A DNA stretch of 64,000 bases from Candidatus Zixiibacteriota bacterium (GTDB lineage Bacteria > Zixibacteria > MSB-5A5 > JAABVY01 > JAHJOQ01), in NCBI GenBank assembly GCA_018820315.1, contig JAHJOQ010000073.1, positions 13,343 to 77,342 of the forward strand. The letters are read 5' to 3'. Positions within the stretch are counted from its first letter, which is position 1, and each line of letters opens with the position of its first letter. Shown in pieces: positions 36,560 to 48,372 of this stretch. Position numbers and translations under genes: made by a program. The notes beneath the pieces were generated by a model. That model saw only the letters and a program-made list of their open reading frames with translations, was not told the origin of the DNA and made no database searches.

Positions 36560-37924
36560 ATGGCCACTGCTGAAAAAACGATCTATGTCTGCCAGTCGTG
36601 CGGATCGACTTATCCGAAATGGTCGGGCAAGTGCGTGCAGTGTGGTGAGTGGAACACGCTGACTGAAGAGAAGCAGAAGAAAAAGACACAGAGGCAGATC
36701 GACAGCGACCGCCTTGGGACAGTCGTGACTCGTCTCGACAAAATCGAAACCTCGGACAACTTCCGCGTGCCGACTGCTCTTGGTGAGTTTGACCGAGTTA
36801 TCGGCGGTGGGCTTGTCGCGGGTGCGTCGCTGCTGCTGGGTGGCGATCCCGGGATCGGGAAATCGACGTTGTTGCTGCAGACAGCCGGAAGTTTGGCATT
36901 GAACGGTCAGTCGGTGCTATATGTCTCGGGCGAGGAATCGGCTGAGCAGATAAAGAATCGCGCAGATCGGCTCGGGATAATGTCTGACAGAGTGACTGTC
37001 GCCACAACTACGGAGATGCATGAAATCAAGGCTATCATCGATCGGGAATATCATTCGTTTGTGATTATAGACTCGATCCAGACATTGCGTTCGCGGGAAT
37101 ACGAGTCATCGCCGGGAACCGTGACCCAGATACGCGAATGTGTAGCCGTGCTACAGGACATCTGCTCCGCGAGAGGCATGTGCCTGCTGCTCATTGGACA
37201 TATTACCAAAGAAGGCGCAATAGCCGGTCCGAAAGTCCTCGAGCATATGGTTGATGTGGTTTTGTATTTTGAAGGCGAGAAGAATCATCTCTATCGGATT
37301 CTGCGCGCAGAGAAGAATCGGTTCGGATCGACTTCAGAGATCGGTATCTTCACAATCGGTGGCGCCGGCCTTGAGCCTGTCGCAAATCCATCACAACTTT
37401 TCTTGTCGGAGCGCACCGGCGGCATTTCCGGTCAGGCAATCGTCTGCTCAGTCGAGGGCGCTCGACCGATTCTCTTCGAAATTCAGGCGTTGGTTGCGGA
37501 TTCATCGTACGGAGTTTCTCAGCGAGTGTCATCCGGCTTTGACCAGAAGCGATTGAGTCTGTTGCTTGCGATCCTCGAAAAGAAGCAGGGATTTCGCCTT
37601 GCGGGCAAGGATGTGTTCGTCAATCTGGCTGGAGGATTGCGAATCGATGAGCCTGCAATCGATCTTGGAGTGATGAGCGCAATAGTGTCGAGCCATCAGG
37701 ATACGCCGGTGAGAAGCGATTCTGTGCTGGTCGGCGAGGTCGGACTGGGCGGGGAGATACGGTCCGTTCCGAAGCTTGAAGCGAGAATCAAGGAGGCGAT
37801 TAATCTCGGTTTCTCAAGAATTGTCGTCCCCAATCGAGGGCTGGGTGATTTGAAAAGCAAGTCGGGAATCAAGATAGTGCCTGTGTCGACACTCGACGAG
37901 GCATTCAGAGCTGCATTAGAATAG
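36560..37924 (+). CDS. radA: DNA repair protein RadA/Sms
   Basis: Zn-finger CQSCGSTYPKWSGKCVQCGEWN. Walker A GDPGIGKST. KNRFG motif. Lon-like C-terminal domain. Confidence 0.92.
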   Translation: MATAEKTIYVCQSCGSTYPKWSGKCVQCGEWNTLTEEKQKKKTQRQIDSDRLGTVVTRLDKIETSDNFRVPTALGEFDRVIGGGLVAGASLLLGGDPGIGKSTLLLQTAGSLALNGQSVLYVSGEESAEQIKNRADRLGIMSDRVTVATTTEMHEIKAIIDREYHSFVIIDSIQTLRSREYESSPGTVTQIRECVAVLQDICSARGMCLLLIGHITKEGAIAGPKVLEHMVDVVLYFEGEKNHLYRILRAEKNRFGSTSEIGIFTIGGAGLEPVANPSQLFLSERTGGISGQAIVCSVEGARPILFEIQALVADSSYGVSQRVSSGFDQKRLSLLLAILEKKQGFRLAGKDVFVNLAGGLRIDEPAIDLGVMSAIVSSHQDTPVRSDSVLVGEVGLGGEIRSVPKLEARIKEAINLGFSRIVVPNRGLGDLKSKSGIKIVPVSTLDEAFRAALE

Positions 37925-38563: not shown

Positions 38564-39829
38564 GTGAGGCGAAAAGTGAGTGGAGCGAAAAGTTGGCACA
38601 GACTACTTGAATATCGAGATTGGATATTCGGAGTGATAGCGGCCGCAGCGGCAGTAATTGGCGTATGGAGTTACTTGCAGCAGCCGGAATTGAGATGGCG
38701 ACACATTGAAACCACTGAACATATGACAGAATCGGGAGATCGCGGACAATATACACTGTTAATCGCCAACAAGGGGTTACGTGATGCCTTTAATGTAACG
38801 TTCGTGGCGAGTCTGGAATATGGTCAGTTAGACTCAGCCAATTTCAATCTCGGACTTTCTGATACCCAGTCAGTGGTACTAGGGCAAACTGACATTGAGA
38901 TCGGACTCTCGCGAATACCCAAAGGAAGCGCATCAGAGATCTACGTTTTCGCCAGTTCGCAGGATAGTCTGCCGAGAGAATTGGAAGTTATCAAGCTAAT
39001 AGGTGATGAAGTGCAGGGCGAAGAGTGGGCTCCAGTAACCAGAGTGTGGAAAGCGGTCTATTCAGGAGTTGTTCTTCTTCTACTACTACTGTGTATCATC
39101 AACATTCGCCGATTGCGATTCCCGAAAGTGCGGTCAGGCGGCTATGAATCAAGTATGACGGATATTGTAACGCAAGACGCTTTGGATGAAATCAAGACAA
39201 TAGGGGCATTTGAATTAAAGGCTGATACAGAGGATAGCAGTTATGAATGGAAGACTGAGCATTTAGCTGGCCTTGAGTGGCTCCAGAATAGAATTAAGAA
39301 TGCCAAGAAGCAGATTTCGATTGTATCGTACTCTTTTGTGTCACTTGAGACCCAGCTTGAGCAAGCTCTCGAGGAATATCTTCAGAAAGACAGTACTTGT
39401 CGTTTGCGCATTCTCCTTCTGCAACCGCATTCTCCTAGTTTCGTACAGAAGACACTACTGGAGTCATTCGATCGCCAGGCAGAGTTATTTACGCCGAGTC
39501 AATGGAACAAAGCCGCTATGGAATTGCGAAAGTTGCATGCCCATGATCTAACCCAGACGTTCTCGATTGTTAAGAGATGGTCCAATAAGTACGGTGCCGA
39601 AAGGGTAAAGTGCAGAACGTACTTTGATACGCCGTTATTTGCAGGTTTCCTCTTTGATGATGATGCATTTTGTCTTTCGTCTTACTTCCTCGATCCGGTG
39701 ATGCGTGGGTTCCACAGTCGACGACTTTGCGTGGAAAGCTGCGGCAATTCCGATGATCTGCAAGTTCTGCGGAAGATCTTTCAGAACTGGTTCACTGTTA
39801 AGTTTGCGATGGGGGGCGAAGCCGGTTGA
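38564..39829 (+). CDS. Hypothetical two-TM membrane protein; C-terminal cytoplasmic domain with phospholipase-D-like sequence pattern lacking the catalytic His/Lys (HxK replaced by FxG)
   Basis: TM1 WIFGVIAAAAAVIGVW. An approximately 130 aa beta-rich extracytoplasmic segment. TM2 VVLLLLLLCIINI. The cytoplasmic region ISIVSYSFVSLETQLEQALEEYLQKDSTCRLRILLL ... RVKCRTYFDTPLFAGFLFDDDAFCLSSYFLD parallels the PLD pattern (i.i.spYf...aL..a..rGV.Vrill ... lHaKvmivDd.wa.iGSaNfD) with H replaced by F and K by G. Confidence 0.4.
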   Translation: MRRKVSGAKSWHRLLEYRDWIFGVIAAAAAVIGVWSYLQQPELRWRHIETTEHMTESGDRGQYTLLIANKGLRDAFNVTFVASLEYGQLDSANFNLGLSDTQSVVLGQTDIEIGLSRIPKGSASEIYVFASSQDSLPRELEVIKLIGDEVQGEEWAPVTRVWKAVYSGVVLLLLLLCIINIRRLRFPKVRSGGYESSMTDIVTQDALDEIKTIGAFELKADTEDSSYEWKTEHLAGLEWLQNRIKNAKKQISIVSYSFVSLETQLEQALEEYLQKDSTCRLRILLLQPHSPSFVQKTLLESFDRQAELFTPSQWNKAAMELRKLHAHDLTQTFSIVKRWSNKYGAERVKCRTYFDTPLFAGFLFDDDAFCLSSYFLDPVMRGFHSRRLCVESCGNSDDLQVLRKIFQNWFTVKFAMGGEAG

Positions 39830-39867
39830 AATCTATCTCGATCAACTGGGTAAGGAGAAGTCAACAT

Positions 39868-40551
39868 ATGTACGCCATAGCCAGATCTTACAATGCGCCT
39901 CGCTTGCGAGGCTTAATCAAGAGACTTGACAGTAGTGATCGGTTTACGGCGATTGTTGTTGTAGTCGATAGCGATCGGGACTCAACTGGGACTGCAGACA
40001 GTGTTTCAGCTATGCGGACACGCACATCCATACGAACAGTCCTTCTGGAGAACTATGGATGGTCCAGAGCCTTGAATGCCGGTATTGATGCCTTGCCACG
40101 TCAGCAGCACGAGAATGAGCTTGTCATGATGATATCTAATGAGGTCGCAATCACGATACCTCAAATCGATGCGCTTGCTGAGAAGGCATCCTCGAAAGAT
40201 GCTTCCTGTAGTTACGTACACTTTAAAGGGCGGTCAGAACCGACTTATTTTGTTCCCAGAAACACGTGCGCAGTGTGGAGGAGAGGTGTTTTTGAAAGAG
40301 TGGGACTTTTTGACGAAAGGTTTGATCACAAGACTGGCATGGAGGACTACGAGCTGGTTTTGCGATCGTATAGAGATGCATCACTGCTTCCTTTTCTGGC
40401 CGCGAGAGGCGTTCCTCTTCGGCTTCCGGAGACTCTTAATCTTGCTGAGAAGCTAGATTGGGAAAGCCGCGGGTTGCTCTGGATCAACTCGCTGTATAGC
40501 GAGCATGTTGTATCAGCGATCGAGGCGCACCTTGCTTCGCAGTTTATATAG
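39868..40551 (+). CDS. Glycosyltransferase family 2-like protein (degenerate: DxD motif not evident)
   Basis: AAGGAGAA RBS 8 nt upstream of ATG. TAIVVVVDSDRDSTGT parallels the GT2 DDGSTD segment. ENYGWSRALNAGIDA parallels the NxG..ARN.Gi segment. ERVGLFDERFDHKTGMEDYELVLR parallels GGFDE...gEDyDl..R. The expected DAD/DxD position reads MMISNEV. Confidence 0.45.
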   Translation: MYAIARSYNAPRLRGLIKRLDSSDRFTAIVVVVDSDRDSTGTADSVSAMRTRTSIRTVLLENYGWSRALNAGIDALPRQQHENELVMMISNEVAITIPQIDALAEKASSKDASCSYVHFKGRSEPTYFVPRNTCAVWRRGVFERVGLFDERFDHKTGMEDYELVLRSYRDASLLPFLAARGVPLRLPETLNLAEKLDWESRGLLWINSLYSEHVVSAIEAHLASQFI

Positions 40552-40632: not shown

Positions 40633-41949
40633 ATGAACTTCTTCGCAAGCACAGTCACTACCCTCGCATCAAAAGTACTCACAATATTATTCGGCACACT
40701 CACCGGAGTGCTTACGGCGCGAGCGCTCGGACCATCGGGGCGCGGTACTCTGTCTGTTATCCTCTCGACAGTTTTGATCGGCGTCATATTCGGTGAGTTT
40801 GGCTTGATCGAGGCCAACGCATACATGGCGGCGGGAGACCGACGCAAATCGGCCAAGTTGACTGTCAACAGCCTCTGGAGCTCTATGGGATTTGGAACAT
40901 TGACCGGCTGCGTGATCGTAGCGCTCTATTTGATTTCGCCGGACATTTTCGAAGCAATTCCATTGAGTCTTATGATTGTCGGACTGATATCTGTTCCGTT
41001 CGTGATGCTGGGATTGATGCTGCAGCGCATATATCTGGGGCAGAATCGAATTGTGCAGTTCAACGCCTATGATCTCATTAGTAAGCTGCTGGTATTGATA
41101 CTGACTTTTGTCGGACTCTATCTTCTGCATGTGACACTTTCAACCTATCTAATGATTTACGCGGCCATATTTTGTTTTTCGGGAGTGATATTCTTTCTGG
41201 GGCAGAGAGTGAGCCTCTCAACGATTATGAGACCCGATCTCGGTGTGCTCAAAGAATCGCTTCGATATGGATTCCGTGCGTACATAGCGGTGTCACTGCC
41301 GTTTGTTCTCTCTCGACTTGGACTTTACTTCGTGAACGCACAACTCGGAGCGACCGAAGCGGGGCAATACTCCGTTGCGATGCAGGCCAATGATTTGTTT
41401 CTGATCGTACCTGGCGTCATCGGCACTCTGCTTTTCTCCAGAGTGGCAGCCGACCAGAAGACTCATACACTGACTCTTAAGAGCTTCAGATTCATGCTGA
41501 TGGTTATGCTGCCCATTTTCATACTGGGGCAAATCTTCACACGAGAGCTGGTGCTGTTGCTTTTTGGTGCTGACTTTTTGCCCGCAGTGCTTCTTATGCG
41601 AATCCTGTTCATCGGCGGATTCGCAACTGGTCTCGGGGTCATATTCTTGAATGATCTGGCAGGCAGAGGTTATCCTCTGTTCATAGTCCTGATGTGGCTT
41701 CCATTGTGCGCGATAAACGTAATCCTGAACCTGGTACTGATGAATCTGTGGGGCACCGCCGGCGCAGCAGCATCGCTGGCGGTTACGTATGTATTGGGAT
41801 TCATAGCTGCGGTGCTCTATTTCAGATATTACGTCAAGGTCAGAGGTTGGAGCGGTTTCCTGCCGAGGCCGGGTGATTTCACTGACCTGATTCAATCCTG
41901 TAAGACCGCTGTGGCTGGCCTGACCGGCAGAGGTGAGACTAGACAGTGA
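40633..41949 (+). CDS. MOP-superfamily oligosaccharide/polysaccharide flippase (Wzx-like) integral membrane protein
   Basis: 438 aa with about 12-14 predicted TM helices distributed as in Wzx/RfbX 'polysaccharide biosynthesis protein' family members. The sequence is hydrophobic throughout. Confidence 0.55.
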   Translation: MNFFASTVTTLASKVLTILFGTLTGVLTARALGPSGRGTLSVILSTVLIGVIFGEFGLIEANAYMAAGDRRKSAKLTVNSLWSSMGFGTLTGCVIVALYLISPDIFEAIPLSLMIVGLISVPFVMLGLMLQRIYLGQNRIVQFNAYDLISKLLVLILTFVGLYLLHVTLSTYLMIYAAIFCFSGVIFFLGQRVSLSTIMRPDLGVLKESLRYGFRAYIAVSLPFVLSRLGLYFVNAQLGATEAGQYSVAMQANDLFLIVPGVIGTLLFSRVAADQKTHTLTLKSFRFMLMVMLPIFILGQIFTRELVLLLFGADFLPAVLLMRILFIGGFATGLGVIFLNDLAGRGYPLFIVLMWLPLCAINVILNLVLMNLWGTAGAAASLAVTYVLGFIAAVLYFRYYVKVRGWSGFLPRPGDFTDLIQSCKTAVAGLTGRGETRQ

Positions 41950-42062
41950 TGAGTAAGACACGATTTAGGATATAAGAGGCAGGTTTCGGGCAAACTTACA
42001 CAGCCAGTCGCCTGCACAGCCACCGACCGCGTTTATTATTTGCCTGTTTTACGAAAATGTGA

Positions 42063-42091
42063 TTGCCTTGGATCACCTTTGTATATATTAT
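42063..42091 (+). promoter_or_regulatory. Candidate sigma-70-like promoter (TTGCCT-17-TATTAT) for the methyltransferase gene
   Basis: TTGCCT at 42063-42068, a 17 nt spacer, then TATTAT at 42086-42091, about 25 nt upstream of ATG 42118. Confidence 0.35.
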
Positions 42092-42117
42092 CGATTCGAG
42101 AACATCCACAGGAGAAG

Positions 42118-42972
42118 ATGGTGATCCAAAGAAATCTGTTGCCGGTTAATAAGATAATCTGCGGGAATTGCGAAGAAGTCTTGAAGGGATTCCCTGAGGA
42201 CTCGGTGGATCTTATCGTTACATCTCCACCGTACGCCGATAGCAGGAACAGTACATATGGCGGCATACATCCTGATGAGTATGTGGACTGGTTTTTGCCC
42301 AAGGCAGTTGAATTCCATCGTGTTCTAAAACCTACGGGAACATTCATATTGAACATCAAGGAGAAGGCCGTCCGTGGAGAGCGCCACACTTATGTATTAC
42401 AGTTGATACTCCGGCTCCGCGAAGAGGGTTGGCTTTGGACGGAGGAATTCGTGTGGTACAAGAAGAACTGCTATCCAGGCAAATGGCCGAACAGATTTAG
42501 GGATGCATGGGAACGATGCCTTCAATTCAATAAGCAGAAGAAATTCGCCATGTATCAAGATGAGGTTATGGTGCCGATGGGAGAATGGGCCAAATCGCGG
42601 CTCAAGAACCTCAGCGAAACCGACAAAATCCGGGATGAGTCAAGGGTCGGTAGCGGTTTTGGCAAGAATATTTCCAATTGGCTCCGGAGAGATAAGGCTT
42701 ATCCATCAAATGTCTTGCATTTGGCCACCGAATGTTCTAACAAGAATCACAGCGCGGCATTTCCCTTGTCGCTGCCAGAGTGGTTCATTAAGCTCTTCAC
42801 CAAGAGAGGCGACCTCGTGCTTGATCCCTTTAATGGATCGGGGACTTCTGCCATTGCCGCCAGGAAGCTGGGGCGGAAGTATATCGGCGTGGATTCGAAC
42901 CTCGAGTACTGCTTAATGGCCGAGAGGCTTCTGAAGAGCGAAGACAGGCAGGTAGTCATATGGAACAACTGA
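42118..42972 (+). CDS. DNA methyltransferase, beta-class (N4-cytosine or N6-adenine; SPPY motif IV precedes motif I)
   Basis: NKIICGNCEEVLKGFPEDSVDLIVTSPPY carries motif IV SPPY. The C-terminal LDPFNGSGTSAIAA carries the motif I FxGxG AdoMet site. The order IV then I is typical of the N6_N4_Mtase beta class (e.g. PvuII/RsrI-type). The ORF-track start at 42040 was moved to ATG 42118 (AGGAG RBS). Confidence 0.8.
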   Translation: MVIQRNLLPVNKIICGNCEEVLKGFPEDSVDLIVTSPPYADSRNSTYGGIHPDEYVDWFLPKAVEFHRVLKPTGTFILNIKEKAVRGERHTYVLQLILRLREEGWLWTEEFVWYKKNCYPGKWPNRFRDAWERCLQFNKQKKFAMYQDEVMVPMGEWAKSRLKNLSETDKIRDESRVGSGFGKNISNWLRRDKAYPSNVLHLATECSNKNHSAAFPLSLPEWFIKLFTKRGDLVLDPFNGSGTSAIAARKLGRKYIGVDSNLEYCLMAERLLKSEDRQVVIWNN

Positions 42973-43706
42973 GTTTGAAGGATGTAGAGAAATTTGTTAG
43001 CACGGAAATCGTCACCTTTCACAAGAACAAACTTGAGATTTTGAAGCGGAAAAAACTTCAGAAGCTTCTAAGAGATAAGAATCCGTATCTCTTCAAGGCC
43101 AAGAACATTCTCATCGCCTCGGACTTGGTTACCAACATAATGGATGCTTACCTGTATGCTTCTGAGGAGAAACTCTTCGGTGATTTTCTGGAGGAACTGG
43201 CGATTTTTGTTGCCGGAAAGACATACGGGGGAAGAAAGTCATCGGCAACTGGCATTGACCTAGAGTTTGAGAAGTGTGGTAGACATTATCTGGTTTCAGT
43301 GAAATCTGGACCCAATTGGGGAAACAGCTCTCAACAGAAGAAGCAACAGACTGACTTTCAGAAGGCAGTCGGAGTACTCAAGCAGTCCCGATCTGAAGCT
43401 ATGGTCGAACCAGTTCTGGGAATCTGCTATGGCAAGTCTAAGACGAAGCATCTAAGAGGTTACACAAAGGTCATGGGACAGCTCTTCTGGAATCTTCTTG
43501 GCGGCAATCCAAATCTGTATACTGACATAATTGAACCGTTAGGTCATGATGCGAAGAAGCACAATGAAGAATTCTTGAAACAAAAGGCAGTCATAATCAA
43601 CACATTTACAGCGGAATTCCTGAAGGAATTCTGCGGCAGTGGCCAAATATGCTGGGATAAGCTTGTCAAATTCAATAGTGGAAACATGACGGACGATGCT
43701 TCCTAA
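42960..43706 (+). CDS. Hypothetical protein; candidate cognate Type II restriction endonuclease (by context only)
   Basis: Overlaps the MTase stop by 13 nt, suggesting co-transcription and translational coupling. No database-recognisable motif. The segment TGIDLEFEKCGRHYLVSVKSG could form a divergent PD-(D/E)xK core. AT-richer than the flanks by eye. Confidence 0.35.
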   Translation: MEQLSLKDVEKFVSTEIVTFHKNKLEILKRKKLQKLLRDKNPYLFKAKNILIASDLVTNIMDAYLYASEEKLFGDFLEELAIFVAGKTYGGRKSSATGIDLEFEKCGRHYLVSVKSGPNWGNSSQQKKQQTDFQKAVGVLKQSRSEAMVEPVLGICYGKSKTKHLRGYTKVMGQLFWNLLGGNPNLYTDIIEPLGHDAKKHNEEFLKQKAVIINTFTAEFLKEFCGSGQICWDKLVKFNSGNMTDDAS

Positions 43707-43804
43707 CGTGCTGCTGGCCGCGGAGATGGTAAAAACGCCACATTGCAGAATTGTCGGGCACTTGCTTCAGTATACATGCTCACCAAAAGGCATACTTCGC
43801 GAAC

Positions 43805-44929
43805 ATGGTAATACATTTCAACATAATACATTATGATCCTTCTTCCCGTGCGCGCACGGGTGAAGTGACGACTGCGCATGGGACATTCCCGACGCCGGCG
43901 TTTATGCCGGTCGGGACTGCGGGTGCGGTCAAGGCTGTATCCGCCGATGATCTCGAAGCGCTCGGTTTTGATATCATCCTCGGTAACACATATCATCTCT
44001 ATCTGCGTCCCGGCACCGATGTTATCGAACATGCAAGTGGATTGCACAGATTCAATTCATGGAAGAAATCGATCCTGACCGATTCGGGTGGATTCCAGGT
44101 GTTTAGCCTCGGTGAGTTGAGCAAAATCAATGACGAGGGTGTGACGTTCAAATCGCATCTCGATGGGTCATCGCATCTCTTCACGCCGGAAAAAGTCGTC
44201 GATATTCAGCGGATACTGCGGTCAGATATCATGATGCCGCTCGATCAATGCGTAAAGTTCCCGACGGAGCACGATGATGCGGCCAAGGCGGTCGATCTGA
44301 CGCTCGACTGGCTGAAGCGATCTGTTGATGCATGGAGGCCGCTATCAGATAAGCAGGCGCTGTTCGGAATAGTGCAGGGATCAACGTACAAAGACCTTCG
44401 AACCATAGCGGCCGAGACCACAGTCGAACTCGAATTGCCCGGTTATGCAGTCGGTGGGCTGTCTGTCGGGGAGCCGAATGATCTGATGCTGGAGCTTGCC
44501 GATCACACTGTGCAGTATCTCCCGGAAGATCGACCGCGATATCTGATGGGGCTCGGTACTCCGGTCGAGCTTCTGGAAGCAATCGCCCTCGGCTATGATA
44601 TGTTCGACTGCGTGCTTCCGACCCGCAACGCGCGCAATGCGACCCTCTTGACCACCAATGGTCGAATGATAATCAAGGCAGCTCGTTATAAGAGAGATTT
44701 TCGTCCAATCGATGAAGATTGCGGCTGCCTGACCTGTCGGCAATATCACCGGGCGTATTTGCGCCATCTCTTCAATATCAATGAGCCATCAGCTCTTAGA
44801 TTATCCACGATACACAATCTCTACTTCACATCGCGCCTGATGCAGGATTCTCGCAAAGCCATTGCTGACGGTCGTTTCGGGGTGTTTCTGGAACAATTCA
44901 AAGGCCGCTATGTTAATAACGACAGGTAA
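43805..44929 (+). CDS. tgt: Queuine tRNA-ribosyltransferase
   Basis: RARTGEVTTAHGTFPTPAFMPVGTAGAVKAVSADDLEALGFDIILGNTYHLYLRPG parallels E. coli Tgt. Zn-binding CGCLTCRQYHRAYLRHL. Start placed at the ATG matching the N-terminal alignment. Confidence 0.88.
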   Translation: MVIHFNIIHYDPSSRARTGEVTTAHGTFPTPAFMPVGTAGAVKAVSADDLEALGFDIILGNTYHLYLRPGTDVIEHASGLHRFNSWKKSILTDSGGFQVFSLGELSKINDEGVTFKSHLDGSSHLFTPEKVVDIQRILRSDIMMPLDQCVKFPTEHDDAAKAVDLTLDWLKRSVDAWRPLSDKQALFGIVQGSTYKDLRTIAAETTVELELPGYAVGGLSVGEPNDLMLELADHTVQYLPEDRPRYLMGLGTPVELLEAIALGYDMFDCVLPTRNARNATLLTTNGRMIIKAARYKRDFRPIDEDCGCLTCRQYHRAYLRHLFNINEPSALRLSTIHNLYFTSRLMQDSRKAIADGRFGVFLEQFKGRYVNNDR

Positions 44930-45008
44930 AAAGTACTTGACTTTGGCAGACTTAGGGCGAAATTAAGTGGTTTGTCGAAGTAACGGGCTAAACAGCAGGA
45001 GGTAGTTT

Positions 45009-45326
45009 GTGATTCACTTTTTGTCAGGATTCGCCGCTAACCCGGAATCGGGCGGGGGAAATCCGCTTATGCAGATGCTGATATTTTTCGTGCCGATCAT
45101 TTTGATCATGTACTTCTTCATGATTCGCCCTCAGAAGAAGCGGCAGAAAGAGCATCAGGATCTGTTGGCAGCGCTGAAAACGGGTGACAAGGTAGTCACC
45201 AATAGTGGTATGATCGGCACAGTTGTCGGTATTCACGACGATAAGAATAAAGTCGTGCTCAAAGTGGCCGATCAAGTTAAAATAGAGTTTGTAAAAAGTT
45301 CAATAGCTGGACTTGTAGAAAACTGA
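45009..45326 (+). CDS. yajC: Preprotein translocase subunit YajC
   Basis: LIFFVPIILIMYFFMIRPQKKRQKEHQDLLAALKTGDKVVTNSGMIGTV is the canonical YajC sequence. The true start is probably the internal ATG at 45069. Confidence 0.85.
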   Translation: MIHFLSGFAANPESGGGNPLMQMLIFFVPIILIMYFFMIRPQKKRQKEHQDLLAALKTGDKVVTNSGMIGTVVGIHDDKNKVVLKVADQVKIEFVKSSIAGLVEN

Positions 45327-45336
45327 TTGAGCAGGT

Positions 45337-45840
45337 ATGGCTGGAAATCTTGTTCGAAAGTATGGTGATCCGGTTCTGAGAGAACCGTGTGAACCGGTAG
45401 TGGTATTCGATGAGGAGCTGAAAAGATTTGCGGAGAAGATATTCTCCATTATGAAATCCGCCAATGGCATCGGATTGGCGGCTCCCCAAGTGGGAGATAC
45501 TCGGCGTATGTTCGTAATTGATTTGTCCTCGCAGACTTTTGACGCTGAGCCGATGGCTTTTGTAAACCCCGAAATAGAGAGCACCGATGGCACAGAGACC
45601 GCCGAAGAGGGATGTCTATCATTCCCCGGCCTCTTCTTACAGGTGGTTCGCGCCGAGAAGATTACGGTGAAATTCCAGGATCTGGAAGGGAAGACTCATC
45701 GTATCGAAGCGACCGGTCTCGCAGCCCGTGCGATCCAACATGAGAATGATCATCTAAACGGGGTTTTGTTCATCGACCACATACCTTCAGTAGATCGAGA
45801 GATCCTGGCCGGCAAGCTCAAGAAGATCAAAGTCGGCTGA
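45337..45840 (+). CDS. def: Peptide deformylase
   Basis: Motifs GIGLAAPQ, EGCLSFPG and QHENDHLNG (HExxH). Confidence 0.92.
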   Translation: MAGNLVRKYGDPVLREPCEPVVVFDEELKRFAEKIFSIMKSANGIGLAAPQVGDTRRMFVIDLSSQTFDAEPMAFVNPEIESTDGTETAEEGCLSFPGLFLQVVRAEKITVKFQDLEGKTHRIEATGLAARAIQHENDHLNGVLFIDHIPSVDREILAGKLKKIKVG

Positions 45841-45842
45841 GT

Positions 45843-46775
45843 ATGCGTCTGATTTTTTTTGGTAACCCCAAATTTGCTCTGCCCAGCCTCCAGCGATTGG
45901 CGTCGTCCCCGCACGAGATAATGTGCGTAGTGACCTCGCCTAACCGCGCTGCGGGACGTGGCAGGAAGCTTCATGTGCCGGAAGTCAAGATTGCGGCCGA
46001 ACAGTATGGGCTGCCTGTTTTACAGGTAGAAGACTTGACAGATTCCTCCTTTCTGGAGAAACTTGCCCAGTTAGCTGCTGCTCTGTTCGTAGTCGTCGCA
46101 TTTCGGATCCTTCCGCCGGAATTGTTGGCAATACCGGCGCTCGGTGCGATCAACCTGCACGCTTCACTGCTGCCCAAGTACAGAGGCGCCGCCCCAATCA
46201 ATCATGCGATAATGGCGGGGGAAACAGAGACCGGTGTCACGACCTTCCAGATAAAACAAAAGGTTGATACAGGAGGGATTCTCGTACAGCGAAAAGAGAG
46301 AATTCTCCCCGATGACACTTACGACAGTCTGTATGACAGACTGAGTCTTCTGGGGGCTGATGTTTTGCTCGAAACAGTCAATGGCCTTGAAAAAGGCATT
46401 CTTGAACCGGCGGAGCAGAATCCTGCTCTTGCGTCAAAAGCGCCGAAAATCAAACCGGAACAGGGAGAGATCGACTGGTCGCAGTCCGCTGAGTCCATCA
46501 ACAACCGTATCAGAGGATTCTGCTCCAAACCGGGAGCTTATACCTTTCGAAACGGAAGCAAGCTGAAGATATTGCGAAGTGAAGTCTTGCATGCCGCGAA
46601 GAATTCTCCGGAGGACGGAAGCTTGGTTATGGAAAGCGGTGTGGACGGTCTCGTGGTCGCGACTGGCGATGGCTGGTTGAGACTCCACGAAGTCCAGCCG
46701 GCGGGCAAGAAGCGAATGAAGGCTGAAGATTACCTCAGGGGTTATCCACCAGTATCCGGCGAAGCGCTCGGATAA
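45843..46775 (+). CDS. fmt: Methionyl-tRNA formyltransferase
   Basis: MRLIFFGNPKFALPSL...INLHASLLPKYRGAAPINHAI. The def-fmt adjacency is conserved. Confidence 0.9.
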   Translation: MRLIFFGNPKFALPSLQRLASSPHEIMCVVTSPNRAAGRGRKLHVPEVKIAAEQYGLPVLQVEDLTDSSFLEKLAQLAAALFVVVAFRILPPELLAIPALGAINLHASLLPKYRGAAPINHAIMAGETETGVTTFQIKQKVDTGGILVQRKERILPDDTYDSLYDRLSLLGADVLLETVNGLEKGILEPAEQNPALASKAPKIKPEQGEIDWSQSAESINNRIRGFCSKPGAYTFRNGSKLKILRSEVLHAAKNSPEDGSLVMESGVDGLVVATGDGWLRLHEVQPAGKKRMKAEDYLRGYPPVSGEALG

Positions 46776-46809
46776 TCAGACGCTCCGATCACGCAGAGAG
46801 GAGCAGAAT

Positions 46810-48372
46810 TTGAAGCAAGAGATTGTAATTAACTGTGCACAGCACGAAACCCGGATAGCTATTCTGGAGAACGACAAGCTTGTCGAACTCCTGGTTGAGC
46901 GACCGGGGGATCAACGAAATGTAGGGGCTATCCACAAGGGGAGGGTGACGGCAGTTCTGCCGGGCATGCAGGCGGCATTTCTTGATTTGGGACTCGATCG
47001 CACGTCGTTCCTGCATATCTCCGATGTCGGCACCGACTCGTCGGCACGCAGGTATGATTTTGATTATGATGATGACGAGAATGAGACCGAAAGCGACATA
47101 ATCCGCAAGACGAGCCGTCAGAATCCCATCGAGAAGCTAATCCATCAGGATCAGGAGATTCTGGTTCAAGTAATCAAGGAGCCACTGGGCGACAAGGGGG
47201 CGCGCGTCAGCACGGCCATAAGTCTGCCCGGGAGATTCCTGGTGCTCGTTCCGAACGAGAAGCACATCCGTGTGTCGAAGAGAATATCGAACTGGGCGGA
47301 GCGCAAGAGGCTGCGCCGGATGCTTTTCGATCTTCGCCCCGAAGGTTTCGGATTCATTGTCCGCACGGAGGGTGAAGGCAAGACTGAGAGAGACTTCAGA
47401 AGAGATATAAAGCGGCTTGTCAAGATCTGGGACCGTATCAGGAAGTCCGCCGACCGCAAGAGCGCGCCCGCGCTCCTGCACCGCGATGCCGGTATAACAA
47501 CCAGTATAGTGCGGGATTTCTTCACAGAGGACACGGAACGCGTAATAGTCGACTCACGTGATATTTACAAAGAAGTGATCGCATTCGTGAAAATGGTAGC
47601 TCCCGGTCTCAGGGACAAAGTCGAGCTGTACAAAGGTGATGTCCCCATATTCGATCTCTATGGTATCGAAGATGAGATCGATCGAACGCTCAATCGCAAG
47701 GTATGGATTAGAAAGGGCTCATTCATCGTCATTGATCAGACTGAGGCGCTCTGGGCTATCGACGTCAACACCGGCCGATTTGTAGGCCGAAAGGCCCAGG
47801 AACAGACGATTCTACTGACGAACCTTGAGGCAGCAAGAGAGATAGCTCGCCAGATCAGGTTGAGGGATCTTGGCGGACTGATCATAATCGACTTCATCGA
47901 TATGTATAGTCGCGAAAACCGTCGCAGGCTCTTCGAGGAGTTCAAGTCGCACTTCAGGAATGACCGCGCGAAGAATGCAATCAGTCCGGTGTCGGACTAC
48001 GGTCTCATCGAAATGACTCGCGAAAGAACGCGCCCGTCCCTGATTCAGACTTTTTCCGAGCCCTGTCCGACCTGCAACGGCTTCGGACGAGTATTGTCCA
48101 AGGACACAATTGCAACGAAGATTGATCGCTGGTTCCAGCGCGCGCGAGCAGGCACGCGGACTCGCAAATTCCAGTTGATAGTTCATCCTGAGGTCGCAAA
48201 GCATCTTCGCGCTCGCGAATCGAACAGTCTCAAGAGGATTTTAATGCAACTCAGATTCAAGATTGAGATTATTGAAGATGATTCTCTTAGACCGGAGAAC
48301 TACAAAGTGATTTCTCTCGATGATAATGTAGAGGTCACTGATCTGTATAAGACGAAGGCTGAAGTTAAATGA
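46810..48372 (+). CDS. rng: Ribonuclease E/G-family endoribonuclease (RNase G-sized, with acidic insertion in the S1 region)
   Basis: S1 domain GRVTAVLPGMQAAFLDLG...FLHISDV. DNase I-like catalytic core (GGLIIIDFIDM). Zn-link CPTCNGFG. Acidic insertion RYDFDYDDDENETESD. Confidence 0.85.
   Translation: MKQEIVINCAQHETRIAILENDKLVELLVERPGDQRNVGAIHKGRVTAVLPGMQAAFLDLGLDRTSFLHISDVGTDSSARRYDFDYDDDENETESDIIRKTSRQNPIEKLIHQDQEILVQVIKEPLGDKGARVSTAISLPGRFLVLVPNEKHIRVSKRISNWAERKRLRRMLFDLRPEGFGFIVRTEGEGKTERDFRRDIKRLVKIWDRIRKSADRKSAPALLHRDAGITTSIVRDFFTEDTERVIVDSRDIYKEVIAFVKMVAPGLRDKVELYKGDVPIFDLYGIEDEIDRTLNRKVWIRKGSFIVIDQTEALWAIDVNTGRFVGRKAQEQTILLTNLEAAREIARQIRLRDLGGLIIIDFIDMYSRENRRRLFEEFKSHFRNDRAKNAISPVSDYGLIEMTRERTRPSLIQTFSEPCPTCNGFGRVLSKDTIATKIDRWFQRARAGTRTRKFQLIVHPEVAKHLRARESNSLKRILMQLRFKIEIIEDDSLRPENYKVISLDDNVEVTDLYKTKAEVK

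What the first reader, a model, noticed from the sequence alone, without database searches (positions are those of the whole stretch)
42063..43706. Restriction-modification pair with an unrecognisable endonuclease partner
A beta-class SPPY methyltransferase (N4C or N6A) is translationally coupled by a 13 nt overlap to a 248 aa protein with no recognisable family signature. The protein has only a weak PD-(D/E)xK-like segment (GIDLEFEK...VSVKSG). This is a possibly novel Type II restriction enzyme. Both genes look AT-rich relative to the flanks and the pair has its own promoter-like element.
Basis: partly seen in the sequence, partly recalled or inferred. Interest (0 to 1): 0.5.

Follow-up and report, generated by a model that had tools for sequence, protein, structure and literature searches.

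The report
Ordinary EcoO109I/PmeII-family restriction-modification pair
The two overlapping genes are a real restriction-modification pair, but the "unrecognisable" nuclease is a clear member of the known EcoO109I/PmeII restriction-enzyme family, found next to the same methylase in hundreds of genomes, so this is an ordinary mobile defence cassette.

Summary
The sequence observation holds. A 284-aa beta-class SPPY methyltransferase (42118-42972) overlaps a 248-aa ORF (42960-43706) by 13 nt, and the pair is AT-rich (46.4% GC against 50.8% for the window).

The central claim fails. The 248-aa protein matches Pfam PF14511 (RE_EcoO109I) at E 5.8e-71. Its predicted fold matches only the EcoO109I crystal structures (TM 0.66-0.70). 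More than 8000 homologues exist, and NCBI labels some of them "PmeII family type II restriction endonuclease".

The methyltransferase is closest to M.PvuII, an N4-cytosine enzyme (E 2e-33). Its orthologue lies directly upstream of the nuclease gene in 80 of 82 assessable loci from many phyla, and the pair also sits on small enterobacterial plasmids.

The active site reads E69/E70, D100, S113-x-K115, with Ser where the usual acid would be. AvaII has Gln at that position.

The target sequence is inferred, not shown. It is probably GGWCC-like, protected by m4C.

Side result: a co-occurring sister strain carries a different pair (TdeIII-family nuclease plus a 533-aa methyltransferase) in the same slot between the flippase gene and tgt.

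Verdict: a new member of a known kind, of low interest.

The parts
42063..42091 (+). Promoter-like site TTGCCT-17-TATTAT upstream of the MTase gene
   Evidence: 9 of 12 consensus matches. Such sites are not more frequent here than in shuffles. The surrounding 188 nt is 95.7% identical in the sister-strain contig L089. Function not shown.
42110..42114 (+). Shine-Dalgarno-like AGGAG, 3 nt before the MTase ATG
   Evidence: Read directly from the sequence.
42118..42972 (+). Beta-class DNA methyltransferase gene (284 aa), probably N4-cytosine. Motif IV SPPY is at 42223-42234 and motif I DPFNGSGT at 42823-42846.
   Evidence: PF01555 E 7.5e-43. Best solved relative is M.PvuII, an N4-cytosine MTase, E 2.2e-33 over residues 14-267. 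PADLOC MTase_II E 1.6e-49. Exact protein in NCBI as 'site-specific DNA-methyltransferase [candidate division Zixibacteria]'.
42960..43706 (+). Type II restriction endonuclease gene (248 aa), EcoO109I/PmeII family. Catalytic codons: E69-E70 at 43164-43169, D100 at 43257-43259, S113 at 43296-43298, K115 at 43302-43304.
   Evidence: PF14511 E 5.8e-71. Model pLDDT 80, with helix 53-89 followed by strands 101-105 and 108-115. Foldseek top three hits are EcoO109I 1WTD/1WTE. The catalytic residues are invariant in 25 homologues.
42960..42972 (+). 13-nt overlap of the MTase stop with the nuclease start (translational coupling)
   Evidence: In 77 orthologous loci, 68 show an M/R overlap and 9 a gap of at most 31 nt. 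The commonest overlap is 4 nt, so the 13-nt length itself is not conserved (R starts estimated).
42141..43833 (.). Segment that differs from the sister-strain contig L089. It is the variable restriction-modification slot between the flippase gene and tgt.
   Evidence: L089 1-188 matches window 41953-42140 (95.7%), and L089 3052-3936 matches window 43834-44718 (88.8%). The 2863 nt between them in L089 encode a different MTase and a PF09520 TdeIII-family nuclease.
42061..42136 (.). Inverted repeat (arms 42061-42077 and 42120-42136, 88% complementary, core TTGGATCACC / GGTGATCCAA) that brackets the promoter-like site, ribosome-binding site and start codon. It ends 4 nt before the left breakpoint of the swap.
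   Evidence: As RNA the fold is not exceptional (z -1.08). L089 has a different and stronger hairpin built on the same GGATCAC motif at the junction (z -3.35). Meaning unknown.

Best explanation
This is a Type IIP restriction-modification cassette made of two translationally coupled genes.

The upstream gene encodes a beta-class, M.PvuII-like methyltransferase. It most likely makes N4-methylcytosine in a short palindromic site and so protects host DNA. The downstream gene encodes a homodimeric PD-(D/E)xK endonuclease with the EcoO109I fold. It cuts the same site when unmethylated, for example in incoming phage or plasmid DNA.

No controller (C) protein is present. The M-then-R gene order and the overlapping stop and start codons are the likely means of producing methylase first, or in excess. 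The active site is a family-wide variant: E69/E70 on the core helix, D100, and S113-x-K115.

The cassette is horizontally mobile. It has low GC, and the same pair occurs in many phyla, on small mobilizable plasmids and on a few viral contigs. Here it occupies a variable slot between a Wzx-like flippase gene and tgt in a Zixibacteria genome.

Shown: gene structure, family membership, fold, conservation of the pair, and the cassette polymorphism.

Inferred: enzymatic activity, m4C chemistry, the regulatory logic, and the target. The target is probably GGWCC or a close GGNCC-type site.
For: - Family: PF14511 at E 5.8e-71, full-length.
- Fold: the only significant structural matches are EcoO109I, TM 0.66-0.70 over 275-285 columns.
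- Integrity: the protein keeps every invariant and nearly invariant residue of 25 homologues.
- MTase: PF01555 with SPPY, and best solved match N4C M.PvuII.
- Pairing: an orthologous MTase is directly upstream in 80 of 82 assessable loci, with overlap or a gap of at most 31 nt in all 77 measured. The flanks differ in every genome examined.
- Plasmids: the same M-then-R pair occurs on 5-8 kb (mostly 5.2-5.7 kb) mobilizable plasmids of Klebsiella, Enterobacter, Salmonella, Citrobacter, Aeromonas and Acinetobacter. There the MTase is 67% and the nuclease 47% identical to these.
- Active site: AvaII, a structurally characterised relative of EcoO109I, works with Q161-x-K163, so a non-acidic residue at that position is compatible with activity (PMC7337904). 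A weak BLASTP alignment to the TdeIII-family enzyme of L089 places S113-V-K115 opposite D-L-K.
- Target: characterised family members cut GGNCC-type sites. EcoO109I cuts RGGNCCY. PmeII cuts GGWCC (bioRxiv 10.1101/2021.02.10.430591). GGWCC is the most depleted of 32 pentanucleotide palindromes in 83 carrier loci: O/E 0.59, 585 against 986, the next pentamer 0.79, depleted in 90% of loci. In 79 control loci without the system it is 0.83.
Against: - No activity, methylation or cleavage data exist for this protein or, as far as I could find, for any close homologue.
- The sequence link to characterised enzymes is remote. Neither the protein nor a 25-sequence profile hits EcoO109I or AvaII in the PDB by sequence. 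Structural-alignment identity to EcoO109I is 16-17%.
- I could not obtain PmeII's own sequence, so the 'PmeII family' link rests on RefSeq naming.
- M.PmeII and M.EcoO109I-type partners are not beta-class N4C enzymes. M.PmeII is m5C.
- GGWCC depletion is not specific evidence. Carrier loci are also more depleted than controls for CYCGRG, GRGCYC and GGCGCC, and the two sets differ in taxonomy.
- In this window GGWCC is barely depleted (O/E 0.87).
- The canonical acid of (D/E)xK is replaced by Ser.
- NCBIfam and PADLOC have no model that matches the nuclease.
Confidence: 0.85

Rival explanations
1. One reading: a restriction enzyme of a new, unrecognisable family paired with a known methylase.
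For: The protein is missed by NCBIfam, by PADLOC and by sequence search of the PDB. NCBI labels this exact protein only 'cytosolic protein'.
Against: Pfam PF14511 matches at E 5.8e-71 over the whole model. The fold match to EcoO109I has probability 1.00. Thousands of homologues carry the same Pfam domain. RefSeq names homologues as a type II restriction endonuclease family.
Confidence: 0.02
2. This is an EcoO109I-family cassette, but its target is not GGWCC. It could be RGGNCCY, GGNCC or a site unrelated to GGNCC. The methylase might also make m6A rather than m4C.
For: Identity to any characterised enzyme is very low. The MTase class differs from that of PmeII, which is m5C. GGWCC is not depleted in the host window, while GGSCC is (O/E 0.55). 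The carrier-versus-control contrast is as strong for several other palindromes. JGI pipelines label the MTase homologues 'adenine-specific'.
Against: GGWCC is a clear outlier among pentamers across carrier loci, and the result holds in both halves of the set (0.58 and 0.60). RGGNCCY and RGGWCCY show no depletion beyond that of their sub-words (O/E 1.02 and 1.09). SPPY and the full-length match to M.PvuII favour N4C (the SPPY/N4C association is established knowledge, not tested here).
Confidence: 0.4
3. The nuclease is a decayed or inactive remnant, or does something other than restriction, and the methylase acts effectively as an orphan.
For: Ser replaces the canonical acid at position 113. 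Two of 82 loci show the pair coming apart: R alone in L060 and a truncated 114-aa M in L066.
Against: S113 is invariant across homologues, so it is the family's normal state. The ORF is full-length and keeps all conserved residues. Strict co-occurrence with an intact MTase in 80 of 82 loci is what a toxic, active nuclease predicts. AvaII is active with Gln at that position.
Confidence: 0.05

Closest known systems
EcoO109I restriction endonuclease (PDB 1WTD/1WTE; Pfam PF14511 RE_EcoO109I), which cuts RG^GNCCY
   Same: Same Pfam family, with the full model matched. Same overall fold over about 275 aligned columns, TM 0.66-0.70. PD-(D/E)xK core with the catalytic Asp and Lys.
   Different: Only 16-17% identical in the structural alignment and undetectable by sequence search. 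Ser sits at the (D/E) position. The partner methylase is a beta-class PF01555 enzyme. No C (controller) gene is present, whereas the EcoO109I system has C.EcoO109I (as summarised in PMC5935869). Target unknown.
'PmeII family type II restriction endonuclease' (RefSeq name). PmeII of Pseudomonas mendocina cuts GGWCC.
   Same: RefSeq gives this name to homologues 37-49% identical on plasmids and to a 60%-identical MAG protein. These sit in the same M-then-R arrangement, with an MTase 67% identical to this one. GGWCC depletion in carrier loci fits that target.
   Different: M.PmeII makes m5C, whereas this partner looks like an N4C enzyme. I could not compare PmeII's own sequence.
The ORF6/ORF7 pair of Citrobacter plasmid pCS36-4CPA and its relatives on ColE1-type plasmids (PMC5935869)
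   Same: EcoO109I-domain nuclease (48% identical) next to an N4/N6 'YhdJ-like' methylase. Proposed as a restriction-modification system in 2016.
   Different: Plasmid-borne in Enterobacteriaceae rather than chromosomal in Zixibacteria. Also never characterised biochemically.
AvaII (G^GWCC, structure described in PMC7337904)
   Same: Reported there as weakly similar to EcoO109I, with a conserved catalytic core. Its non-acidic Q161-x-K163 parallels S113-x-K115 here.
   Different: Not among the top 50 Foldseek matches. Different N- and C-terminal elaborations. Its partner is an m5C methylase.
M.PvuII (PDB 1BOO), an N4-cytosine beta-class methyltransferase
   Same: Best solved relative of the MTase, E 2.2e-33 over nearly the full length. 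Same motif order, with an SPPF/SPPY catalytic motif.
   Different: Its target is CAGCTG, and its partner nuclease PvuII belongs to another family. The middle (target-recognition) region is poorly conserved.

Membership tests
Pfam PF14511 RE_EcoO109I (EcoO109I/PmeII-family Type II endonucleases) | Family HMM matched above the curated gathering score over most of the model | tested here: met
   238.8 bits against a cut-off of 22.5, E 5.8e-71, profile positions 2-198 of 198.
Pfam PF14511 RE_EcoO109I (EcoO109I/PmeII-family Type II endonucleases) | EcoO109I three-dimensional fold | tested here: met
   AlphaFold model with pLDDT 80 and pTM 0.68. Foldseek hits 1-3 are 1WTD/1WTE: E 7e-8, probability 1.00, TM 0.66-0.70. 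The next hit has E 0.02.
Pfam PF14511 RE_EcoO109I (EcoO109I/PmeII-family Type II endonucleases) | Complete PD-(D/E)xK catalytic residues | tested here: inconclusive
   E69/E70, D100 and K115 are invariant, but position 113 is Ser rather than Asp or Glu, and this Ser is invariant in the subfamily. AvaII tolerates Gln there. I could not make a residue-level superposition on EcoO109I.
Pfam PF14511 RE_EcoO109I (EcoO109I/PmeII-family Type II endonucleases) | Cleavage of a GGNCC-type palindrome leaving a 3-nt 5' overhang | not testable with these tools
   Only indirect evidence: GGWCC O/E is 0.59 in carrier loci and 0.83 in controls, and the contrast is not unique to GGWCC.
EcoO109I restriction-modification system in the strict sense (R + M + C.EcoO109I) | Controller (C) protein gene, and a methylase that is an orthologue of M.EcoO109I | tested here: not met
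   No ORF of 50 aa or more lies between the flippase gene and the MTase, or after R. The partner is a PF01555 beta-class enzyme. The C protein of EcoO109I is cited in PMC5935869.
Type II (IIP) restriction-modification system | Separate, adjacent methylase and endonuclease genes that are conserved together | tested here: met
   80 of 82 loci keep the orthologous MTase immediately upstream. Overlap or a gap of at most 31 nt in all 77 measured. Unrelated flanks.
Type II (IIP) restriction-modification system | Demonstrated methylation and cleavage of the same site | not testable with these tools
   No experimental data found for this subfamily.
Beta-class N4-cytosine DNA methyltransferases (M.PvuII-like) | Motif IV (S/D)PP(Y/F) lies N-terminal to SAM-binding motif I (FxGxG), with the target-recognition region between them | tested here: met
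   S36-PPY39 and D236-PFNGSGT243, read from the sequence. Full-length alignment to M.PvuII.
Beta-class N4-cytosine DNA methyltransferases (M.PvuII-like) | The product is N4-methylcytosine rather than N6-methyladenine | not testable with these tools
   Inferred from SPPY and from M.PvuII and other cytosine-N4 enzymes being the top solved hits. Some source pipelines label homologues 'adenine-specific'.

The most novel reading that the evidence does not exclude
This very widespread pair has never been characterised: it is present in at least 550 GTDB species representatives and has more than 8000 protein clusters. It could be the unassigned source of GGWCC m4C methylation. A 2022 marine metaepigenome study reported that motif as having no REBASE match (PMC8919816). 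Alternatively the pair could recognise a new site altogether, using an S-x-K variant of the PD-(D/E)xK active site. The flippase|tgt slot would then be a hot spot where restriction-modification cassettes of related (GGNCC-type) specificity replace one another between co-existing strains. The promoter, ribosome-binding site and first codons are kept across the swap.
Probability: 0.3. Interest if true: 0.3.

Novelty: new member of a known kind. Interest (0 to 1): 0.15.

Why it matters
It matters little beyond annotation.

- The exact protein is labelled 'cytosolic protein' in NCBI.
- Neither NCBIfam nor PADLOC recognises the nuclease. Defence-system surveys built on those libraries would score this common pair as an orphan methylase and so undercount Type II systems in uncultured phyla.
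- The subfamily is abundant and has no assigned recognition site. A single methylome or cleavage experiment on a cultured carrier would annotate thousands of genes.
- The cassette swap with a sister strain in the same sample is a clean small example of strain-level restriction-modification turnover in an uncultured lineage.

Tried and rejected
1. Sequence search of the PDB with the protein and with a 25-sequence profile found no real hit. The link to EcoO109I came only from Pfam and from the fold search.
2. NCBIfam and PADLOC scans of the nuclease found nothing.
3. Palindrome avoidance in the window alone has too little power. GGWCC O/E is 0.87, GGSCC 0.55 and CTAG 0.30.
4. Avoidance across 83 carrier loci makes GGWCC the outlier pentamer. 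Against tgt-neighbourhood controls, the contrast is equally strong for CYCGRG, GRGCYC and GGCGCC. I therefore treat it as suggestive only, because the taxonomic make-up of the two sets differs.
5. Literature searches for EcoO109I, PmeII, PF14511, and GGWCC or GGNCC with m4C found no characterised close homologue. One paper (PMC2711268) was not held.
6. Profile comparison of this family with the TdeIII-family nuclease of L089 showed no significant similarity. A single BLASTP alignment of the catalytic core was marginal (E 0.026).
7. As an RNA hairpin, the inverted repeat around the start codon is not better than shuffles (z -1.08).
8. The flanking 26-nt inverted repeat (41904-41929 / 43905-43930, 73% complementary) lies in conserved coding sequence, and I regard it as chance.
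9. The promoter-like element is not statistically above chance.
Full report
**What is in the sequence**

Two + strand ORFs occupy 42118-43706.

- The first starts at ATG 42118, three bases after AGGAG (42110-42114), and ends at 42972. At 284 aa it is identical to an NCBI protein from a candidate division Zixibacteria MAG. A longer TTG start at 42040 is possible mechanically, but homologues do not support it.
- The second runs 42960-43706 (248 aa). It is also identical to a deposited Zixibacteria protein, which carries only the name 'cytosolic protein'.
- The two overlap by 13 nt (ATGGAACAACTGA).
That site matches 9 of 12 consensus positions. Such sites are no more frequent here than in shuffled sequence.
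- The pair has 46.4% GC (R gene 43.4%) against 50.8% for the window. This is the lowest 1% of same-length windows.

So the descriptive part of the finding is correct.

**The nuclease is recognisable**

- The 248-aa protein matches Pfam PF14511 (RE_EcoO109I) at E 5.8e-71 over the whole model.
- A 25-sequence alignment (A1) gave an AlphaFold model with mean pLDDT 80.
- The only significant matches of that model among 350,542 PDB chains are the three EcoO109I chains (1WTD, 1WTE). They score E about 7e-8 to 6e-7, probability 1.00 and TM 0.66-0.70 over about 280 columns. The next hit has E 0.02.
- More than 8000 database proteins match, which is the scoring cap. The top 120 are 58-68% identical and all carry PF14511.
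- RefSeq names plasmid homologues, and one MAG homologue, 'PmeII family type II restriction endonuclease'.

- NCBIfam and PADLOC have no model that hits the protein.
- Neither the protein nor the A1 profile finds EcoO109I or AvaII in the PDB by sequence.
- Identity to EcoO109I in the structural alignment is 16-17%.

**Active site**

The model has the canonical core: a long helix (53-89), then strands 101-105 and 108-115.

- Invariant residues sit where the catalytic residues of PD-(D/E)xK enzymes lie: E69/E70 on the helix, D100 at the start of the next strand, and S113-V-K115 on the following strand.
- The usual acid of (D/E)xK is Ser in every homologue aligned.
- In AvaII, described as weakly similar to EcoO109I with a conserved catalytic core, that position is Gln (Q161-x-K163) and still ligates the metal ion. 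E123 and D147 are its other ligands (PMC7337904).
- A marginal BLASTP alignment with the TdeIII-family enzyme of L089 puts S113-V-K115 opposite D-L-K (E 0.026).

I infer an active variant site. This is not demonstrated.

**The methylase**

- It matches PF01555 at E 7.5e-43.
- SPPY (residues 36-39) comes before DPFNGSGT (236-243), which is the beta-class order.
- The best solved relative is the N4-cytosine enzyme M.PvuII, E 2.2e-33 over residues 14-267. Other cytosine-N4 enzymes follow, ahead of adenine enzymes.
- N4-cytosine chemistry is therefore the more likely, by inference.

**The pair is a conserved, mobile unit**

- In four loci from unrelated contigs, a PF01555 gene directly precedes and overlaps the PF14511 gene, and the neighbours differ completely each time.
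The best 80 come from Chloroflexota, Planctomycetota, Poribacteria, Nitrospirota, Acidobacteriota, Bacteroidota (including cultured Porphyromonas gulae DSM 15663), Pseudomonadota, KSB1 and two archaeal MAGs.
- Of the 84 loci fetched (the four above plus these 80), two are cut too short to judge or lack room upstream.
- In 80 of the remaining 82, an orthologue of this MTase (63-75% identical) ends at the start of the nuclease gene on the same strand.
- The two exceptions are L060, which has R alone, and L066, which has a 114-aa MTase remnant.
- M and R overlap in 68 of 77 measurable loci. The others have gaps of at most 31 nt. A 4-nt overlap is commonest, so coupling is conserved but the 13-nt length is not (R starts estimated).
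- The same M-then-R pair sits on 5-8 kb (mostly 5.2-5.7 kb) mobilizable plasmids of Klebsiella, Enterobacter, Salmonella, Citrobacter, Raoultella, Aeromonas and Acinetobacter. In one of them the MTase is 67% identical to this one.
- One of these plasmids, pCS36-4CPA, was published in 2016. Its EcoO109I-domain ORF and N4/N6 methylase were proposed there as a restriction-modification system (PMC5935869).
- Eleven viral contigs of 2.9 million, and one phage record, also carry a relative.

The restriction-modification reading stands. The novelty reading does not.

**Mechanism**

This is a standard Type IIP system. The methylase marks host sites, and a dimeric nuclease cuts unmarked sites in incoming DNA. 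No ORF of 50 aa or more that could encode a controller protein lies beside the pair. The EcoO109I system does have one. Gene order and overlapping stop and start codons are the plausible way of keeping nuclease production dependent on, and later than, methylase production. This is inference.

**Target site**

The target is not established. Three lines point to a GGNCC-type site, most likely GGWCC.

1. Characterised members of the family cut such sites. EcoO109I cuts RGGNCCY. PmeII cuts GGWCC, deduced from the P. mendocina methylome and the statement that the motif equals the PmeII site.
2. In 83 carrier loci (about 640 kb), GGWCC is by far the most depleted of 32 pentanucleotide palindromes. 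O/E is 0.59 (585 against 986, z -12.8), it is depleted in 90% of loci, and the next pentamer is 0.79. The result holds in both halves of the set.
3. In 79 control loci around tgt genes from metagenomes that lack the system, GGWCC O/E is 0.83. The difference from carriers is about 6 standard errors.

Caveats:

- Carriers are just as much more depleted than controls for CYCGRG, GRGCYC and GGCGCC, and the two sets differ in taxonomy.
- The host window itself shows GGWCC O/E of only 0.87. That would fit recent acquisition, given the low GC, but it is no support.
- M.PmeII is an m5C enzyme, unlike this partner.
- I could not examine PmeII's own sequence.
- A marine metaepigenome study listed GGWCC (m4C) among motifs with no REBASE match (PMC8919816). 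That is compatible with this family but not linked to it.

**A variable slot**

The control scan also returned two contigs from one metagenome sample, Ga0180009.

- L086 is 99.96% identical to window 41953-44718.
- L089 is a sister strain. Its first 188 nt match window 41953-42140 at 95.7%. That stretch includes the promoter-like site, AGGAG, the ATG and the first seven codons of the MTase.
- Its last 885 nt match window 43834-44718 (tgt) at 88.8%.
- In between, L089 does not have the 1693 nt found here. It has 2863 nt encoding a 533-aa PF01555 methylase, with motif I before SPPY, followed one base later by a 257-aa PF09520 (RE_TdeIII) nuclease at E 3.5e-89.

The site between the Wzx-like flippase gene (PF13440) and tgt (PF01702) therefore holds alternative restriction-modification cassettes in co-existing strains. 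The left breakpoint lies 4 nt after the right arm of an inverted repeat (42061-42077 / 42120-42136, core TTGGATCACC / GGTGATCCAA). In L089 the same GGATCAC motif forms a stronger hairpin exactly at the junction (z -3.35). In the window the fold is unremarkable (z -1.08). I cannot say whether this motif is an operator, a recombination site or chance.

**Verdict**

This is a real but ordinary Type II restriction-modification cassette. Its nuclease belongs to a known, very large family, and the same pair has already been described on plasmids. It is a new member of a known kind. Interest is low. The residual value is an annotation gap, an unassigned recognition site for an abundant subfamily, and a neat strain-level cassette swap.

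Noticed in passing
L089 189-3051 (metagenome contig Ga0180009_10030132), corresponding to window 42141-43833: A sister strain from the same sample has a different restriction-modification pair in the same slot between the flippase gene and tgt: a 533-aa PF01555 methylase and a 257-aa PF09520 TdeIII-family nuclease. The upstream 188 nt are conserved, including the first seven codons of the window's MTase gene. In L089 those codons open a short ORF of about 32 codons.
   Followed up: partly
window 42061-42077 and 42120-42136; L089 about 166-198: The motif GGATCAC / GTGATCC forms an inverted repeat around the promoter-like site and start codon. It ends 4 nt before the cassette breakpoint. In L089 it forms a perfect 12-bp stem hairpin at the junction (z -3.35). 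It could be an operator, a recombination site or chance.
   Followed up: partly
window 42960-43706: Annotation gap. NCBI calls this exact protein 'cytosolic protein'. NCBIfam release 20 and PADLOC 2.0 have no model matching it, although Pfam PF14511 hits at E 6e-71. Defence-system finders built on those libraries would report the MTase as an orphan.
   Followed up: yes
window 38564-40551: Two overlapping + strand ORFs (421 aa with an N-terminal hydrophobic segment, and 241 aa) have no Pfam hit at E 1e-5 or better and low GC (46.8% and 48.8%). They lie between radA (36560-37924) and the Wzx-like flippase gene. This may be part of a variable surface-polysaccharide or accessory region.
   Followed up: no
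L060 1530-2324; L066 3569-4777: Two of 82 orthologous loci show the pair decaying. L060 has the nuclease gene alone, between a 3-hydroxyacyl-CoA dehydrogenase gene and an EamA transporter gene. L066 has an intact nuclease ORF preceded by a 114-aa methylase remnant. These could be inactive nucleases or MAG assembly errors.
   Followed up: partly
L002 5799-6767 and L003 5786-6691; L001 1-1006: In two carrier contigs a second PF01555 methylase gene lies convergent, immediately downstream of the nuclease gene. In L001 a PF00145 cytosine-C5 methylase gene lies about 3 kb upstream. This suggests local clustering of modification genes.
   Followed up: no
whole window: CTAG is strongly under-represented (21 observed against 70 expected, O/E 0.30). 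GGCC, GGSCC and CAGCTG are moderately under-represented (0.64, 0.55 and 0.54). GGWCC is not (0.87).
   Followed up: no
L088 4001-8600, compared with window 43844-48372: The gene order tgt-yajC-def-fmt-RNase E/G is conserved in a relative whose Tgt protein is 74% identical. The 4 kb upstream of its tgt has no similarity to the window, so the variable region ends at tgt.
   Followed up: partly
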